A stretch of DNA of 64,000 nucleotides. It comes from Deltaproteobacteria bacterium. GTDB lineage: Bacteria > UBA10199 > JADFYH01. The notes under the pieces are model-generated. The model was not told the origin of the DNA. It did no database searches and worked only from the letters and a program-made list of their open reading frames with translations. Both the position numbers and the translations under genes were made by a program. The stretch lies in the NCBI GenBank assembly GCA_015233135.1, contig JADFYH010000002.1:43102-107101 (forward strand), read 5' to 3'. Below, one piece after another: positions 57,532 through 64,000 of this stretch; position 1 is the first letter of the stretch, and the number at the start of each line of letters is the position of its first letter.

Positions 57532-59009
<1,478 letters not shown>

Positions 59010-59093
59010 TTATAGGGCAGCTTTGTGGGTGTCAAGATCTGTCAGATCAAAAGCTCGACTTTTTTAAAAAAGTCAATAAAGCTAATACGTAAG

Positions 59094-59663
59094 ATGATAC
59101 TCAAGTTCAAATCTAGAGACCCAAGAAGAAATTTACCAATAGACCTCTACCGTAAAAGAGGCGAATCCAATTTTGTTGGCTTATTTGAACGTGCATTTTT
59201 GCAAGAAAACAAAAAAGGCGTCGGTGGCCGCCAATTTGCTGTGTCTGGTTTTGGTGTTGCTGACTTTATCTGGCTCAACCTTTCTGGTTTATCGTCTTTT
59301 AAAAATAACAAAGATATTAATCCAATTGATTTTTTTAAAAATCACCCTCTCATGGCTTTTGAAATGAAGCTTGGTGATTGGAAACGGGCTCTGCATCAAG
59401 CTTACCGATACTCTTATTTTGCTGACCACGTCGTTGTGGTCTTACCAATGAATAAAACTACAGCGGCATGTAACAATCTTGCTCTCTTCAAATATCTGGA
59501 TATTGGTTTATGGGGTCTGGACTCTGATAAAACTATCACTAAATTTTTCACTTCCCATTCTTCAGTCGCAAAAAGTGAAAATGCACGCAACAAAGCTGTT
59601 GATTTAATTGGTCGGAAAATCAATTTCCGCATGTTTGCGGAACAAGCGCAAAGCTTCCTCTAA
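59094..59663 (+). CDS. Hypothetical protein with a possible PD-(D/E)xK-like motif (start uncertain).
   Basis: GVADFIWLN ... AFEMKLGDWKRA gives a D ... E-x-K arrangement. AT-rich. No SD. Confidence 0.35.
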   Translation: MILKFKSRDPRRNLPIDLYRKRGESNFVGLFERAFLQENKKGVGGRQFAVSGFGVADFIWLNLSGLSSFKNNKDINPIDFFKNHPLMAFEMKLGDWKRALHQAYRYSYFADHVVVVLPMNKTTAACNNLALFKYLDIGLWGLDSDKTITKFFTSHSSVAKSENARNKAVDLIGRKINFRMFAEQAQSFL

Positions 59664-60812
59664 CGGTTCGAGGTGCTCATCATTTGATTTCGTATCTAAT
59701 GCAGAGGGCACTGCTTTTATCTGATCGTAAGTTTCCTTAGCCTTGTTGATGAGTTGTTTCATGGCTTTAAGCCCCTCAATCTGTGTGCCTGAAGCAAGCA
59801 TGCCATTAAGTTTTTTCAATGACTGCCAAGACTGCAATACTTCTTGATTACGAGCGGGCTCATCTTGTTGATAAATTTTATCAGTTTCTAGCCCATTAAT
59901 AATGCTTGGAACTTTTCCTTTCAAAGCACTGAGTTCAAAATGCGTAATACGGTTTAAAAGATTAATACTCAAGTAGCGTTGAATGGGTAAGCGACCACCA
60001 CTATTTAAAGGATTAAATCGATCGATCGAAAAATTCCTTAAATTCGACCACCATCCCGTGGCACCTGCACTGCCTCCAGCTATTCCTAAAAATGGAGTCA
60101 AAATATCAGAATATCCATTGATTACCTCAAAGCCATTCAGTTTCAAGGTATGATTGAGCATCATCCAAGCCGCAATAACATCAGGGTTATAAATGTCGGA
60201 GCGGGCTTCATTACTGCGAGCTGCTACCAAAAGATAAAACCCACTGGGAGGGGTTTCTAGCATGGTCACTTCATTGAGAAATTCAAAGAAATCATTTTTA
60301 TCAGTTAGCGCTTCACGAGAAACAGCCAACGTAACATACAACGGTTTGTTATCTTTAATCTTTGTATGATGGACTTCAGCGGCTTGTCGGATAAAATCTT
60401 TTGAGATGCTAGCTTCGATGGAATCGAACGATCGATGAATGAGAATATTCGGAGCAATATAAGCAGTCAGATTAAGTTTTTTTTGGAATTGAAGAGCCAA
60501 AGAAATTATATTTACGACTTCACTTTCTCTTTCAAGCTGGCTGCGTCGTGTGTGTTGAAAATATTCTGTATAGTCATCTTCAAGGTACCCAAGCTTTGCA
60601 CCATCCTGTTTTATTAGAAAGGAAGCATAAAATTGCGGATCAAAATAAAGCTCAATGCTGGGTGAGCTTTTGGAAATATCTTGAATTTTTTTTTCGAGCT
60701 TTTCAAAAGAAACATCGCGCGGGCTGTATATCACACCATCGATTAATTTTTGTGAAATTCCTTCGTTAATTTTTTCACCCTCTTGTGAGCCGTGTTGTGC
60801 GAAAAGTTTCAT
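59604..60812 (-). CDS. Hypothetical 402-aa protein, AT-rich, directly downstream of the kinase gene on the same strand.
   Basis: ORF overlapping the kinase stop by 4 nt. No homology recognised. Confidence 0.55.
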   Translation of the reverse strand: MKLFAQHGSQEGEKINEGISQKLIDGVIYSPRDVSFEKLEKKIQDISKSSPSIELYFDPQFYASFLIKQDGAKLGYLEDDYTEYFQHTRRSQLERESEVVNIISLALQFQKKLNLTAYIAPNILIHRSFDSIEASISKDFIRQAAEVHHTKIKDNKPLYVTLAVSREALTDKNDFFEFLNEVTMLETPPSGFYLLVAARSNEARSDIYNPDVIAAWMMLNHTLKLNGFEVINGYSDILTPFLGIAGGSAGATGWWSNLRNFSIDRFNPLNSGGRLPIQRYLSINLLNRITHFELSALKGKVPSIINGLETDKIYQQDEPARNQEVLQSWQSLKKLNGMLASGTQIEGLKAMKQLINKAKETYDQIKAVPSALDTKSNDEHLEPLEEALRLFRKHAEIDFPTN

Positions 60813-61732
60813 AGTGAACCCTCCAATTTTTTAATCATCACCTGAATATTACTTGGTCTGAGTGCCGGTTTCTTTTTAAGCATCTGGTCAATTATCTGGC
60901 AAAGAGCCTCTGTTAAATCTGGGCGTTCATCCCTGAGCGGAACCGGTTTTTGACGAATGGCCCTTGAAATTGTATTTACCAAATCATCTTGCGATTGTGC
61001 CAGTGGATGCTTGAAACAGGCATATTCATAAATACTCAAAGCTGCATTATAGAGATCACTTCTGTAATCGATGTTCTGACGAAAATTTGGATCCATCATT
61101 TCAGGCGCAAGATATCTGTATGTTGCTGGGGGTAATCGATTTTGTGCGTTAAAGGTCAAAGCTGTATCGGTAGTGGAAAACGCAATTCCAAGATCGAGGA
61201 GAACAAAGGGTCTTTTTTTATCTCCGGTTTTGATGATGTTACACGGTTTGATGTCACGATGAATATAATCATGTTCCCAAAGATTTTTAATTGCCCTCAG
61301 TAAAGCCACAAACAATTGCTTTAATTCTAACTCGCTCGGTTTAGGCCCATTAGATTTGAGTGATTCTCTGATCGAATCAAAAAGGTTTTGACCTTGAATG
61401 AATTCTTCTGAATAAACGAAATATTCCTGAGCACCCAAATGGGTGAGTTGGTGTGTTATTGATCCAAGTTTGACAAGTTCGTTTACCTTGCATTTACCTA
61501 GCGCTAAAACCTCACGCTCAATTCTACCAATAAATTCTTTGCGAATTCCATCAGCTTCTTCTGAATTTTCTAGCATTGGAATTTGTACAAGTTTTACGGC
61601 TTCAATAATACCGGAAACTTTAGCCTTATAAACAACTTTGAATCCACCAGTGGCAATGTGCTCCAGATCAGATATTTGGGAAAACTTTTGTTTGATCAGT
61701 TCTTTGTTGGGTAATTCAATTGCCATACACAT
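60809..61732 (-). CDS. Eukaryotic-type Ser/Thr protein kinase domain protein.
   Basis: Gly-loop/VAIK-like IATGGFKVVYKAKV...AVKLV. Catalytic loop HRDIKPCNII. DLG (DFG-like). APE motif YLAPE. Confidence 0.8.
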   Translation of the reverse strand: MCMAIELPNKELIKQKFSQISDLEHIATGGFKVVYKAKVSGIIEAVKLVQIPMLENSEEADGIRKEFIGRIEREVLALGKCKVNELVKLGSITHQLTHLGAQEYFVYSEEFIQGQNLFDSIRESLKSNGPKPSELELKQLFVALLRAIKNLWEHDYIHRDIKPCNIIKTGDKKRPFVLLDLGIAFSTTDTALTFNAQNRLPPATYRYLAPEMMDPNFRQNIDYRSDLYNAALSIYEYACFKHPLAQSQDDLVNTISRAIRQKPVPLRDERPDLTEALCQIIDQMLKKKPALRPSNIQVMIKKLEGSL

Positions 61733-61769
61733 CCCTTCTATAAAATAAGTTTTCTAATACATTTTGTGA

Positions 61770-64000
61770 TCATGGTTCACCCCACACTCGTGCAAGTGTG
61801 ATTTGTATTTTTTTCTCAAAGCGCTCTATCAACTCGTTGTTAGCATTCACTAGTCTTTGCTCGGCTTCGATCTCGGCGACAATTGTTTGCTGCGTGGCGA
61901 GGGGTGGGAGGGGGATTTTAATTTGCTTCAAGTGTGATGGCCCAAAATTTGGCTGTGCCGCGCCCGTAATTAGCCTGTCTATTTGTATCTTAAAGAGTGG
62001 GCTGTCGAGAAAGACCTTGATGTAGCCTTGAAGAATACGTGTAGCATCCTTGGGATGAAGACGAATATTGCTCGTATTCACCATGACCGGGAATCCATGG
62101 TTTTTGAAAATCGCATTTTTTCCGTAGGTTGCTCCCGAACTAGCCAAGATAATGTCACCGTCCTCAACTAAGAAGTGACTATATTTTGCTGTGAACTCCT
62201 CCTCTGAAACATGCTTGTCGGAATTATCTAGAATGACTCTGTCCCCAACGATATTTTTTACGTTTAGCAGCTTGATACCGCTTGATGTGAACTGCCAATT
62301 GCGAATACCAGGCCCTTCTTGGAAGAACACAATTTCATCAAACGACACCATCGGCCAATCAGGATGAATAGGTATATGCGGACGATAGTTATCAAGCACA
62401 GCACGAGCACCATCAATCACTTTCTGATAGCCCTCGATCTCTGCCACAATCTCTTTCTGCACCTCCAGCAGCGGTAAGGGAATTTTGTATGGAGCAATGC
62501 TCTGCCTTGTGATTTGAGGCTGCGCAGAACCAGAGATCGTCGAAGATAGGTCAGAATATTTTAGGATTTGGAAAAGGTACTCTTTGAGAATCGATTCAAT
62601 TTTTGGAGCAAAGACCATTGCGTTGCCTGTAATCCATGATTTTGCTTTCGAATAGTTTAGAGTTCCGCAGGTTGCTCCGCGACAAGTTACGATTACTTCT
62701 GGAAACTCATGATTGAATTTATCATACCTTCCAATGACACCATTCGCTCCGTAAACAAGATAAGCACCATCCTCCTTCATATCCTGTTGAGTAATGGTTT
62801 TTGGTTGATAAATTTCACATAAATCACCAAGCGCCACGAATGGATGAATTAAATCTGCTGCTCGTTTTTCCCGATACCTTTCCCCACTCAGATTATAATC
62901 CCCACTCGCAGCAATCTTTTCTTTCGCCACAATCAAACCACAACCCAGCTGAAGCTTACTGATATCTTGCCGATTGTGAAGAGCTTGCAGATAAGCCTCA
63001 AGTTCAACTTTTACCTGCGGAAGATCATTCTTATCAAAAGAACGACGCTGAGCACCTAATCCAAAGCCATCATTTTCCACTTTGAAAAAGGCGATACTAT
63101 CACTTTGCCGCGCGAGAGATTTGTCGAGAATAAGAATAGAAGTTTTCACTCCAGAGTAAGGATTAAAACAACCCGCTGGGAGTGAGATCACTGCGACGAG
63201 TGAATTTTCTACCAGCATTTTTCGCAGCTCTTTATAAGCACCCTGACTTTGAAAAATAATTCCTTCAGGAACAATGATACCCGCACGTCCAGTGGGAGTA
63301 AGATGTTCAGCGATATAATCGACAAACAACACTTCGCTGCGTTTAGCCTGAATTGAAAATCGTTTATGTGGCTTGATGCCGCCTTTGGGTGACATGAAAG
63401 GTGGATTGGCGAGAATGACATCAGCAAATTCGTTCCATCGATCTTCAGAAGTGAGTGTGTCATATTCAAAAATGTGAGGATCAGTAAAGCCGTGTAAGTA
63501 AAGGTTCACCAGCGAAAGGCGTACCATGTCGGGTGAAATATCGTAGCCCTTAAAGTTTTTCGAGAGCTGCCCTTTTTCATCGGGTGTTAAAGTGCTGGAA
63601 TTTTTATCGTCGCTATTGCTACGCAAAATATGTTTATAAGCGGAGATGAGGAAGCCTGCAGTACCGCAAGCTGGATCAAGAATCATTTCGCCTTTTTTGG
63701 GGTTTATTACTTCGACGATGAAATCAATAATGTGTCGTGGGGTGCGGAATTGGCCTGCATCACCTTGTGAGCCGAGAACAGAAAGTAGATATTCAAACGC
63801 ATCACCTAAACTCTCACTGTGGTCGTAGCTAAACTCGTCGATAATTTTGAGAAAACTTTTGAGGGTTTCGGGATCACGATAAGGCAAATAAGCATTTTTG
63901 AAAATGTCGCGAAACAGTGGAGGAATTCCCGCATTCTGAGGCATGGTGCTGATACCTTCACCGTAAAGGCCAATCAGTTCATAGCCGCCAATACCAGCGC
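61770..64000 (-). CDS. Type I-like restriction-modification fusion: N6-adenine DNA methyltransferase (HsdM-like) fused to a complete two-TRD HsdS specificity region. N-terminus lies beyond the window edge.
   Basis: HsdM motifs DPACGTAGFL (motif I) and NPPF (motif IV). Two TRDs, each followed by the conserved PLPPL.EQ..IV linker. The frame stays open upstream of the listed Met to position 64000. Confidence 0.8.
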   Translation of the reverse strand, partial: AGIGGYELIGLYGEGISTMPQNAGIPPLFRDIFKNAYLPYRDPETLKSFLKIIDEFSYDHSESLGDAFEYLLSVLGSQGDAGQFRTPRHIIDFIVEVINPKKGEMILDPACGTAGFLISAYKHILRSNSDDKNSSTLTPDEKGQLSKNFKGYDISPDMVRLSLVNLYLHGFTDPHIFEYDTLTSEDRWNEFADVILANPPFMSPKGGIKPHKRFSIQAKRSEVLFVDYIAEHLTPTGRAGIIVPEGIIFQSQGAYKELRKMLVENSLVAVISLPAGCFNPYSGVKTSILILDKSLARQSDSIAFFKVENDGFGLGAQRRSFDKNDLPQVKVELEAYLQALHNRQDISKLQLGCGLIVAKEKIAASGDYNLSGERYREKRAADLIHPFVALGDLCEIYQPKTITQQDMKEDGAYLVYGANGVIGRYDKFNHEFPEVIVTCRGATCGTLNYSKAKSWITGNAMVFAPKIESILKEYLFQILKYSDLSSTISGSAQPQITRQSIAPYKIPLPLLEVQKEIVAEIEGYQKVIDGARAVLDNYRPHIPIHPDWPMVSFDEIVFFQEGPGIRNWQFTSSGIKLLNVKNIVGDRVILDNSDKHVSEEEFTAKYSHFLVEDGDIILASSGATYGKNAIFKNHGFPVMVNTSNIRLHPKDATRILQGYIKVFLDSPLFKIQIDRLITGAAQPNFGPSHLKQIKIPLPPLATQQTIVAEIEAEQRLVNANNELIERFEKKIQITLARVWGEP

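What the first reader, a model, noticed from the sequence alone, without database searches (positions are those of the whole stretch)
59025..64000. AT-rich defence-island candidate: fused HsdM-HsdS methyltransferase/specificity protein next to a eukaryotic-type Ser/Thr kinase and two unknown genes
Downstream of guaB the composition drops in GC. A single at-least-740-aa ORF (N-terminus beyond the window edge) fuses a gamma-class N6-adenine MTase (DPACGTAGFL, NPPF) to a complete two-TRD HsdS (two PLPPL.EQ..IV linkers). No HsdR is in view. Immediately downstream on the same strand are a Hanks-type kinase (HRDIKPCNII, DLG, YLAPE) and a 402-aa unknown protein (4-bp overlap). Convergent to these is an ORF with a possible PD-(D/E)xK signature. 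Kinase-coupled methyltransferase modules are known from BREX-type-2/Pgl (PglW/PglX) and kinase-mediated abortive infection. This M-S-fusion-plus-kinase-plus-unknown arrangement does not match those canonical layouts.
Basis: partly seen in the sequence, partly recalled or inferred. Interest (0 to 1): 0.7.

Follow-up and report, generated by a model that had tools for sequence, protein, structure and literature searches.

The report
Portable kinase / TGT-fold / nuclease triad
The region holds two separate things: an ordinary type I-like restriction-modification gene with fused methylase and specificity parts, and next to it a widespread, so far unnamed three-gene cassette (protein kinase, a barrel enzyme shaped like DNA/tRNA base-swapping enzymes, and a small DNA-cutting enzyme) that travels between bacterial phyla and often sits beside known anti-virus genes.

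Summary
All four genes exist as described. The M-S ORF runs off the window; the full protein is 813 aa. It belongs to a large family of HsdM-HsdS fusions. In 5 of 5 relatives with context, an HsdR-like gene lies upstream on the same strand, so an hsdR probably lies just beyond base 64000. None of those relatives carries the kinase cassette.

The kinase, the 402-aa protein and the convergent 189-aa protein form a conserved triad. It occurs in 36 of 38 genome loci from many phyla, and in metagenome contigs (kinase 54/60, nuclease 64/64). The neighbours vary: type I, IIG and III RM, BREX, Hma, a PLD-helicase, Druantia-like genes, or housekeeping genes.

Only the triad is low in GC (0.387); the M-S gene is not.

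Verdict: the single-system reading is not supported. The triad is most likely an autonomous, undescribed defence or exclusion module. Its mechanism is inferred, not shown.

The parts
61770..64000 (-). HsdM-HsdS fusion ('Type IMS'-style methylase/specificity protein). The C-terminal 742 of 813 aa are in the window. This is a separate module from the triad.
   Evidence: Pfam N6_Mtase plus 2x Methylase_S. PADLOC MTase_I 8.9e-91 and Specificity_I. Full-length P0391 is 813 aa. Relatives are paired with an upstream HsdR-like gene.
60809..61732 (-). Hanks-type Ser/Thr kinase, kinase domain only; the first gene of the triad. The probable start is the ATG at 61726.
   Evidence: Pkinase 7.3e-25. PADLOC PD-T4-6 1.8e-29 and mad6 4.6e-26. 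The Gly loop G29-G30, K47, E74, H158-R159-D160, N165, D180-L-G and A209-P-E are conserved in 33 orthologues.
59604..60812 (-). U402: a TIM-barrel protein with a tRNA/DNA-guanine-transglycosylase-like fold and a C-terminal helical region; the second gene of the triad.
59094..59663 (+). U189: a small PD-(D/E)xK (restriction-endonuclease-fold) protein, convergent to U402; the third gene of the triad.
60809..60812 (-). ATGA stop/start overlap between the kinase and U402 (translational coupling).
   Evidence: A 4-nt overlap is seen here and in 73 of 104 loci. Most of the rest are within 3 nt.
59604..59663 (.). Convergent 3'-end overlap of U402 and U189 (60 nt here).
   Evidence: The overlap is greater than 0 in 95% of 109 loci, with a median of 36 nt.
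59001..61769 (.). Low-GC segment that coincides with the triad, bounded by the guaB start (59000) and the M-S stop (61770).
   Evidence: GC is 0.387, against a mean of 0.451 and a minimum of 0.408 for the rest of the window.

Best explanation
Two independent modules lie side by side.

(1) The M-S fusion is the methylase/specificity half of a two-gene type I-like RM system, with R separate and M and S fused. Its hsdR-like partner is inferred to lie just beyond the window edge.

(2) The kinase, the TGT-fold barrel (U402) and the PD-(D/E)xK protein (U189) form a self-contained, horizontally mobile cassette. It has landed between guaB and the RM operon. It is most likely an anti-phage or anti-plasmid defence/exclusion system.

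Proposed working of the triad; every step is inferred.
- U402 and U189 are the functional core, built like a modification/restriction or antitoxin/toxin pair.
- U402 uses a TGT-like pocket to act on, or read, a flipped-out DNA base. This marks or spares self DNA.
- U189 cuts DNA that is not so marked or is recognised as foreign.
- The kinase is made together with U402 from one coupled message. It acts as a switch that tunes or triggers the pair, and it is dispensable for keeping the pair.

I put about 0.8 on 'two modules, triad autonomous', about 0.6 on 'triad is a defence/exclusion system', and about 0.3 on the specific base-directed modification/restriction mechanism.
For: SHOWN
- Triad order and orientation are conserved in 36 of 38 genome loci from Verrucomicrobiota, Planctomycetota, Chloroflexota, Myxococcota, Elusimicrobia, Ignavibacteria, Bdellovibrionales, Aminicenantes and others.
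- They are also conserved in metagenome contigs: kinase 54/60, nuclease 64/64.
- The kinase/U402 ATGA overlap and the convergent U402/U189 overlap are conserved.
- Flanking genes are not conserved.
- The closest relative, L007 (84% identity in U402), has a type IIG enzyme upstream instead of the M-S gene.
- Only the triad is low in GC.
- Defence genes lie immediately next to the triad in many loci: type IIG (L007, L012, L017), type III Res (L019), HmaC (L020), PLD-helicase (L022), BREX PglX..BrxL (L004/L015), an MmeI-like enzyme (L024), a DruE-like gene (L018, L024), and type I downstream (L078/L079). In L033, L035, L037 and L044 the triad sits inside a type I operon between hsdS and hsdR.
- It also occurs with no defence neighbours (L001/L010, L009, L026, L030), so it does not depend on a partner system.
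- Catalytic motifs are intact and conserved in the kinase and the nuclease.
- U402 is the most conserved of the three, with more than 100 invariant positions. Many polar or aromatic ones follow the model's barrel strands.
- TGT-family proteins are the top fold matches by two methods.
- In a plasmid-linked lineage the kinase is reduced to a 60-residue remnant, while U402 and U189 stay intact next to Rep3/RPA genes.
- M-S relatives pair with an upstream HsdR-like gene in 5 of 5 cases.

FROM ESTABLISHED KNOWLEDGE
- An engineered HsdM-HsdS fusion plus HsdR is a working RM enzyme, named 'Type IMS' (PMC3510504).
- DpdA, a TGT homologue, exchanges a DNA base in the Dpd R-M system (PMC10164549).
Against: - No experiment. 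The defence role rests on neighbourhood, mobility and domain content.
- Roughly half of the sampled loci have no recognised defence neighbour.
- U402 shows no sequence relationship to TGT or DpdA: hhalign probability 0.2%, no PDB sequence hit and no Pfam TGT hit in 27 members.
- U402 lacks the CxCx2Cx22H zinc motif.
- By strand-order mapping it has Gly-Trp-Trp where the TGT/DpdA nucleophile Asp would be. The chemistry may therefore differ from transglycosylation.
- Foldseek TM-scores are only about 0.5, and other TIM barrels score close behind.
- No queuosine/preQ0 synthesis genes or DpdB-like ATPase are linked.
- The hsdR of this contig was not seen.
Confidence: 0.6

Rival explanations
1. One reading: the M-S fusion, kinase, U402 and U189 form one integrated methylation-plus-kinase system, a new relative of MADS or BREX type 2/Pgl.
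For: All are packed within 5 kb, with three on one strand and a 37-nt gap between the M-S stop and the kinase start. The M-S and kinase proteins hit the PADLOC mad2, mad5 and mad6 models. Kinases do occur in methylation-based systems such as PglW and MAD6 (family names; PMC12839542).
Against: The M-S gene is absent from 36 of 36 other triad loci, including the 84%-identical L007. M-S relatives never carry the triad. NCBIfam scores are far below cut-off: MADS2 98.6 against 720, MADS5 60.8 against 400, MADS6 55.7 against 460, PglW 30.8 against 990 and PglX 17.8 against 500. GC content differs between the two parts.
Confidence: 0.07
2. The triad is an accessory 'back-up' module that guards a neighbouring DNA-modification-based system, much as PrrC guards EcoprrI. 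It fires when a phage disables the RM or BREX enzyme.
For: It often sits on the same strand, within 1-45 nt of the 3' end of RM, BREX, Hma or PLD-helicase genes. In four loci it lies between hsdS and hsdR, the same slot prrC occupies in the EcoprrI locus (my own knowledge; positions). M-S relatives also carry variable accessory genes at that end.
Against: The partner systems are mechanistically unrelated, so a specific physical guard is unlikely. Several loci have only housekeeping neighbours. The U402+U189 pair persists next to plasmid Rep genes with no RM nearby.
Confidence: 0.15
3. The triad is a type IV-like system. U402 recognises hypermodified bases in phage DNA (for example 7-deazaguanines, the natural ligands of the TGT fold), and U189 cuts that DNA. 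This would complement neighbouring RM systems that such phages evade.
For: The TGT-like fold. Frequent co-location with classical RM. No linked base-synthesis genes are needed under this model.
Against: Known modification-dependent enzymes usually fuse reader and nuclease (my own knowledge). The convergent, overlapping gene pair, and its retention next to plasmid Rep genes after kinase loss, look more like a toxin/antitoxin or R-M pair. The very high conservation of U402 gives no hint of tracking diverse phage modifications.
Confidence: 0.12
4. The triad is not a defence system. It is a signalling or metabolic cassette in which the TIM barrel acts on a small molecule and the kinase regulates it, or it is a plasmid maintenance function.
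Against: A conserved PD-(D/E)xK nuclease with an intact active site is always attached. Distribution is patchy, with 50-59% identity across phyla, and GC is anomalous. There is strong enrichment next to RM, BREX and other defence genes.
Confidence: 0.1

Closest known systems
Type I RM with fused HsdM-HsdS and separate HsdR ('Type IMS', Roberts et al. 2012, PMC3510504); NCBI name 'restriction endonuclease subunit M/S'
   Same: A gamma-class N6-adenine MTase domain is followed by a complete two-TRD HsdS in one chain. Relatives have an HsdR-like gene directly upstream.
   Different: The R partners in relatives are short (mostly about 843-879 aa) and carry HSDR_N_2 rather than the classical HSDR_N. 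Activity and stoichiometry are untested. The hsdR of this contig was not seen.
PD-T4-6 (single-gene Ser/Thr kinase defence from the E. coli functional selection, PMC9519451) and Stk2-type kinase abortive infection
   Same: A kinase-domain-only Hanks kinase of similar size. PD-T4-6 is its best PADLOC match (1.8e-29).
   Different: Here the kinase is translationally coupled to U402 and always accompanied by U189. It can be lost while the other two genes persist. PD-T4-6 works as a single gene.
DpdA / Dpd 7-deazaguanine DNA modification-restriction system and bacterial TGT (PMC10164549)
   Same: U402's model is closest in fold to TGT and DpdA. It pairs with a nuclease, and it has an invariant Asp-x3-Tyr after barrel strand 3 that resembles the D-x3-F/Y acid/base plus stacking motif.
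   Different: There is no detectable sequence similarity and no zinc site, and no clear nucleophile Asp. There are no DpdB/DpdC, no DpdD-K helicase/nuclease set and no linked preQ0 genes. A kinase is present instead.
Cap10 of type IV CBASS (a TGT-family enzyme that conjugates a deazaguanine to the CD-NTase; bioRxiv 10.1101/2025.04.06.647259)
   Different: There is no CD-NTase, no QueC-like Cap9 and no cyclic-nucleotide effector. The partner here is a protein kinase.
MADS and BREX type 2 / Pgl (methylation-based systems that include a kinase)
   Same: A kinase gene lies near a type I-like methylase and specificity module.
   Different: All family-specific profiles score far below cut-off. The other MAD, PglZ and BrxC genes are not in view. 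The kinase belongs to a cassette that is independent of the methylase.
prrC inside the EcoprrI type Ic locus (accessory gene embedded in a type I operon; my own knowledge)
   Same: In L033, L035, L037 and L044 the triad occupies the slot between hsdS and hsdR.
   Different: The proteins are unrelated, and the triad is also found alone and beside many other systems.

Membership tests
Type I RM, M-S fused ('Type IMS') | Gamma-class N6-adenine MTase domain with motif I (DPACGTAGFL) and motif IV (NPPF) | tested here: met
   Pfam N6_Mtase 3.8e-51; PADLOC MTase_I 8.9e-91. The motifs were read in the translation.
Type I RM, M-S fused ('Type IMS') | HsdS part with two target-recognition domains and two conserved helical linkers, in the same polypeptide | tested here: met
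   Two Methylase_S stretches: 370-506 and a second at about 529 onward, seen in the PADLOC Specificity_I matches. Relatives are 800-840 aa with the same Pfam set.
Type I RM, M-S fused ('Type IMS') | Separate HsdR (nuclease plus SF2 motor) encoded with it | tested here: inconclusive
   No HsdR in the window. The sequence beyond 64000 was not retrievable. Five of five relatives have an HsdR-like gene upstream.
MADS | Proteins reach the NCBIfam equivalog cut-offs for MAD2, MAD5 and MAD6 | tested here: not met
   98.6 against 720, 60.8 against 400 and 55.7 against 460 bits.
BREX type 2 / Pgl | PglW kinase, PglX methylase and PglZ present | tested here: not met
   PglW 30.8 against 990 bits; PglX 17.8 against 500 bits. 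There is no PglZ-like ORF in 59025-64000.
Hanks-type Ser/Thr protein kinases | Gly-rich loop, beta3 Lys, alphaC Glu, HRD..N catalytic loop, DFG-type Mg loop, APE | tested here: met
   Pkinase 7.3e-25. All motifs are conserved in 33 orthologues, with DLG in place of DFG.
PD-T4-6 | Matches a PD-T4-6 profile and acts as a stand-alone single gene | tested here: inconclusive
   The profile match is 1.8e-29, but these are generic kinase-domain models. The gene is part of a conserved three-gene cassette. Function was not tested.
TGT / DpdA transglycosylases | (beta/alpha)8 barrel with TGT-type overall fold | tested here: met
TGT / DpdA transglycosylases | Sequence membership (Pfam TGT profile or detectable homology) | tested here: not met
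   No Pfam hit in 27 members at E up to 10. hhalign against E. coli Tgt gives probability 0.2%. There is no PDB sequence hit.
TGT / DpdA transglycosylases | Structural zinc site CxCx2Cx22H (PMC10164549) | tested here: not met
   No invariant Cys in alignment A1; only C351 is nearly invariant.
TGT / DpdA transglycosylases | Three invariant active-site Asp residues (acid/base, base recognition, nucleophile) (PMC10164549) | tested here: inconclusive
   D58-x3-Y62 after strand 3 resembles the acid/base plus stacking motif. D211 and D236 are invariant, but the loop after strand 8 is G253-W254-W255. No residue-level superposition was available.
Dpd system | DpdB ATPase, DpdC and the DpdD-K restriction genes accompany the transglycosylase | tested here: not met
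   No recurrent neighbour beyond the three genes in 38 loci. No PADLOC Dpd hit for U402 or U189.
Type IV CBASS (Cap9/Cap10) | CD-NTase, QueC-like Cap9 and an effector next to the TGT-like gene | tested here: not met
   None among the conserved neighbours. No PADLOC hit.
PD-(D/E)xK nucleases | alpha-beta-beta-beta-alpha-beta core with Asp on strand 2 and (D/E)xK on strand 3 | tested here: met

The most novel reading that the evidence does not exclude
The U402/U189 pair is a second, Dpd-independent kind of restriction-modification system. Self is marked, or foreign DNA read, by a TGT-fold enzyme that exchanges or removes a DNA base rather than methylating it. A minimal PD-(D/E)xK enzyme does the cutting. 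A Hanks kinase, co-translated with the base-acting enzyme, works as an on/off switch. The cassette would be a compact, phylum-hopping immune module that has been missed because it is absent from cultured model bacteria, sequenced plasmids and phages.
Probability: 0.2. Interest if true: 0.85.

Novelty: new variant of a known kind. Interest (0 to 1): 0.66.

Why it matters
If the triad is a working immune module, it adds a widespread system found in many bacterial phyla. It comprises at least 575 sequence clusters at 50% identity.

Its two core proteins belong to families with no profile in Pfam, NCBIfam, PADLOC or PHROGs.

It would also be a third recruitment of the TGT fold to immunity, after Dpd and type IV CBASS. 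This time the fold is coupled to eukaryotic-type protein phosphorylation.

The proposal is directly testable with a 2.7-kb construct. The result also corrects the annotation logic: the neighbouring M-S fusion is an ordinary R + M/S restriction system and is not part of the cassette.

Tried and rejected
- Exact-protein look-ups for the kinase and U402, meant to extend the contig beyond 64000, found nothing. An exact 40-mer from the window edge was not found in the metagenome collection. The source MAG is not among the GTDB representatives. The hsdR of this contig therefore could not be seen.
- Sequence-level links of U402 to TGT all failed. I tried hmmsearch of A1 against PDB sequences (only noise), hhalign against E. 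coli Tgt, and a Pfam scan of every member at E up to 10. The same Pfam scan for U189 also found nothing.
- The afdb50 fold library was unavailable.
- Viral origin was rejected. U402 has no relative in IMG/VR with a single sequence or a profile, none in INPHARED phages and none in PLSDB plasmids.
- Promoter and terminator scans gave no more sites than shuffled sequence.
- No tRNA or integrase marks the island border.
- No contig showed terminal repeats indicating a closed small plasmid.
- Six keyword searches of the held literature found no description of this cassette. The one TGT-containing BREX-related system in PMC12839542 has a different gene set. This is absence in a limited library, not proof of novelty.
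- MADS, Pgl/BREX-2, Dpd and type IV CBASS membership were considered and rejected on profile scores and missing partner genes.

Full report
**What is in the window**

Bases 59025-64000 hold four intact genes.

- **M-S ORF (minus strand).** It ends at 61770. Its frame stays open to base 64000. It carries Pfam N6_Mtase (3.8e-51) and two Methylase_S stretches. PADLOC calls it a type I methyltransferase plus specificity subunit.
- **Kinase (minus strand).** It follows after a 37-nt gap, at 60809-61732, 307 aa. Pkinase scores 7.3e-25. The ATG at 61726 is the likelier start, judged from the GAAGGG ribosome-binding site.
- **402-aa ORF, 'U402' (minus strand).** It lies at 59604-60812 and overlaps the kinase stop by ATGA.
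- **189-aa gene, 'U189' (plus strand).** It converges on U402 at 59094-59663. NCBI's own model is P0271. It overlaps the 3' end of U402 by 60 nt.

guaB starts at 59000 on the minus strand, so the cassette sits directly upstream of guaB. U402 and U189 match nothing in Pfam, PADLOC, NCBIfam or PHROGs. The window comes from a Deltaproteobacteria MAG, on a contig of 126,781 bp.

**The M-S fusion is an ordinary member of a big family**

The full protein is 813 aa (P0391), so only 71 residues are missing from the window. Sources name them 'type I restriction enzyme M protein' or 'restriction endonuclease subunit M/S'.

I looked up five relatives at 60-70% identity that lie on long contigs. They are Nitrospira japonica and four others (L045-L049).

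- All five have an HsdR-like gene (HSDR_N_2 + ResIII/DEAD + SWI2_SNF2) upstream on the same strand. Four are 843-879 aa; the L047 copy is 672 aa. It lies directly upstream or is separated by one to three small genes (KilA-N, PDDEXK_3).
- What follows the M-S gene differs each time: AAA_13 + nSTAND3, DUF3037, PDDEXK_4, or nothing.
- None has the kinase cassette.

Roberts et al. showed that an engineered EcoKI HsdM-HsdS fusion plus HsdR is a working enzyme, and proposed the name 'Type IMS' (PMC3510504). No HsdR homologue is in the window. I could not fetch sequence past 64000. That an hsdR lies just beyond the edge is an inference from the five relatives.

**The kinase, U402 and U189 are a conserved, portable triad**

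U402 has 791 homologues in the 90%-clustered database, at 53-59% identity across phyla. It has 575 clusters at 50% identity, nearly all about 400 aa.

A profile scan of one genome per species returned 38 loci.

- In 36 of them tblastn finds the kinase immediately upstream of U402.
- In 36 of them it finds U189 convergent downstream.
- An all-against-all clustering of 625 neighbouring ORFs found only these three families in more than four loci.

A second scan of metagenome contigs gave 80 more loci.

- The kinase is in place in 54 of the 60 with room upstream.
- U189 is in place in 64 of the 64 with room downstream.

The ATGA kinase/U402 overlap occurs in 73 of 104 loci, and most of the rest are within 3 nt. 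The convergent 3' overlap is positive in 95% of 109 loci, with a median of 36 nt. In a distant branch (Rhodospirillaceae LM-1, L040) the nuclease homologue is still there but co-directional.

The M-S gene is not part of this conservation. The closest relative of the window's triad is L007 (U402 84%, kinase 75%, U189 82% identity). It has a type IIG enzyme upstream instead.

In the window only the triad is compositionally odd. Its GC is 0.387, lower than every 2.6-kb stretch of the other 59 kb (minimum 0.408). The M-S gene at 0.437 is average.

**Context of the triad**

Immediately adjacent genes, often on the same strand within 1-45 nt, include the following.

- Type IIG enzymes (L007, L012, L017).
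- A type III Res subunit (L019).
- HmaC (L020).
- A PLD-helicase (L022).
- BREX PglX..BrxL (L004/L015).
- An MmeI-like enzyme (L024).
- DruE-like helicases (L018, L024).
- A PrimPol/PbeA-like gene (L034, L031).
- Type I systems. In four Opitutaceae/Akkermansia-type MAGs the triad lies between hsdS and hsdR (L033, L035, L037, L044).
- In L078/L079 it lies between a TraG/VirD4 coupling protein and a type I operon.

Other loci have only housekeeping neighbours: aldehyde dehydrogenase and malic enzyme in L001/L010, GH31 in L009, a VWA protein in L026, and histidine ammonia-lyase in L030.

The triad is therefore not tied to any one partner. It is clearly enriched in defence islands and on mobile DNA. 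No relative of U402 is found in IMG/VR, INPHARED phages or PLSDB plasmids. It lives in uncultured environmental lineages.

**What the three proteins are**

*Kinase.* It keeps every Hanks motif in 33 orthologues: the G29-G30 loop, K47, E74, H158-R159-D160, N165, D180-L-G and A209-P-E. It has no extra domain. Its best defence-database match is PD-T4-6 (1.8e-29). That match is at kinase-domain level.

*U189.* The model is confident (pLDDT 87) and has the alpha-beta-beta-beta-alpha-beta restriction-endonuclease core.

- D57 on strand 2 and E90-M-K92 on strand 3 are invariant, as is QAYRYSYFAD.

*U402.* It models as an eight-stranded beta/alpha barrel plus a C-terminal helical region (pLDDT 81, pTM 0.87).

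- Foldseek independently puts archaeal TGT first (E 2e-6). It gives full-length alignments to bacterial TGT with TM about 0.5, against about 0.33 for other barrels.
- At sequence level there is nothing: hhalign against E. coli Tgt gives 0.2% probability, there is no PDB sequence hit, and there is no Pfam hit in any of 27 members.
- Of the features that define TGT and DpdA (PMC10164549), the zinc motif is absent. The Asp-x3-aromatic motif after strand 3 has a look-alike, with invariant D58 and Y62. The loop after strand 8, where the nucleophile Asp should be, reads G253-W254-W255.

I therefore call U402 'TGT-fold', not a TGT family member. Its chemistry is open.

U402 is the most conserved of the three proteins, with more than 100 invariant positions. 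Many of these are Arg, Asp, Tyr or Trp that immediately follow the model's barrel strands (H7, R32-D33, D58, N232-D236, W254-W255). That pattern points to a constrained active or binding site rather than a fast-evolving phage sensor.

**A lineage that lost the kinase**

In about ten loci the gene upstream of U402 is a plasmid replication initiator. These loci are L036, L038, L108, L111, L114, L116-L119 and L122. The initiators are of three unrelated Rep3/RPA types.

In five of these loci the last 30-65 codons of the kinase survive between rep and U402. U402 and U189 stay intact. In a neighbour-joining ordering these loci sit together.

The kinase is therefore dispensable for keeping the pair. 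The pair behaves like the addiction-type modules (R-M, toxin-antitoxin) that plasmids carry.

**How it most likely works (inferred)**

The core is U402 + U189. They are two enzymes encoded tail-to-tail with overlapping ends, an arrangement that lets each be controlled separately and lets transcription of one interfere with the other.

U189 is the DNA-cutting effector. U402 either marks or spares self DNA, or recognises foreign DNA, through a TGT-like base-binding pocket.

The kinase is made in fixed ratio with U402. It acts as a regulator or trigger, as kinases do in Pgl, MADS and Stk2-type systems.

My probabilities are as follows.

- Two modules, with the triad autonomous: about 0.8.
- The triad is a defence or exclusion system: about 0.6.
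- The specific self-marking, R-M-like reading: about 0.3.

**Comparison with known systems and novelty**

The M-S fusion is a new member of a known kind. The triad matches no system in PADLOC 2.0, NCBIfam 20 or Pfam. Six literature searches found no description of it. The TGT-containing BREX-related system of PMC12839542 has a different gene set.

The triad's parts are familiar: a kinase, a restriction-fold nuclease and a TGT-fold barrel. Its likely role as a defence-island cassette is also a known kind. I therefore rate it a new variant of a known kind.

There is a 0.2 chance that it is something further out, namely a kinase-controlled, base-exchange type of restriction-modification. That is worth testing with a 2.7-kb clone, nucleoside mass spectrometry and point mutants.

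Noticed in passing
L036, L038, L108, L111, L114, L116-L119, L122 (e.g. L108:3168-6319): In a kinase-less lineage, three unrelated plasmid replication initiators (Rep3 or RPA) sit directly upstream of U402 and the convergent U189. A remnant of the last 30-65 kinase codons survives between rep and U402 in five of these loci.
   Followed up: partly
L033:5542-14952, L044:5981-15293, also L035 and L037: In Opitutaceae and Akkermansia-type MAGs the triad is inserted inside a complete type I operon: HTH-HsdM, HsdS, the triad, then HsdR. This is the same slot prrC occupies in EcoprrI.
   Followed up: partly
L078:184-13935 and L079: The triad is flanked by a TraG/VirD4 type IV coupling protein upstream and a type I RM operon downstream. 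This suggests carriage on a conjugative element.
   Followed up: no
L040:9073-11870: In a distant branch (Rhodospirillaceae bacterium LM-1, about 30% identity) the nuclease homologue is co-directional with the kinase and U402 rather than convergent (hmmsearch 2.5e-11).
   Followed up: partly
L045-L049: R + M/S systems related to the window's methylase carry variable small genes between R and M/S (KilA-N, PDDEXK_3). They also carry variable genes after M/S (AAA_13 + nSTAND3, DUF3037, PDDEXK_4). The 3' end of these operons seems to be a landing site for accessory genes.
   Followed up: no
L029:9366-11737 and L036:9992-11132: These are decayed copies. In the Aminicenantes MAG the kinase and U402 are broken into several pieces. 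In L036 U402 is frameshifted. U189 looks intact in both.
   Followed up: no
window 61724-61740: The kinase ORF has two in-frame ATGs, at 61732 and 61726. The GAAGGG Shine-Dalgarno sequence abuts the first, so 61726 is probably the real start. This may be why the exact-sequence look-up of the 307-aa product failed.
   Followed up: partly
window 63942-64000: The ORF lister reports the M-S ORF as starting at ATG 63944 (724 aa). The frame is in fact open to the window edge, and the true protein starts 71 codons beyond it.
   Followed up: yes
U402 residues 255-278 (window about 59979-60050): The loop after barrel strand 8 is modelled with pLDDT below 50. Yet it contains many invariant residues: W254, W255, N257, L258, F261, S262, F266, G272-R274, P276, R279, Y280 and S282. 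It may order only on binding a partner or nucleic acid.
   Followed up: no
L021:4274-8818: Three copies of an ORF of about 354 aa (one ORF cluster) lie just upstream of the triad in a Sedimentisphaerales MAG. They are possibly an insertion sequence. They were not annotated.
   Followed up: no
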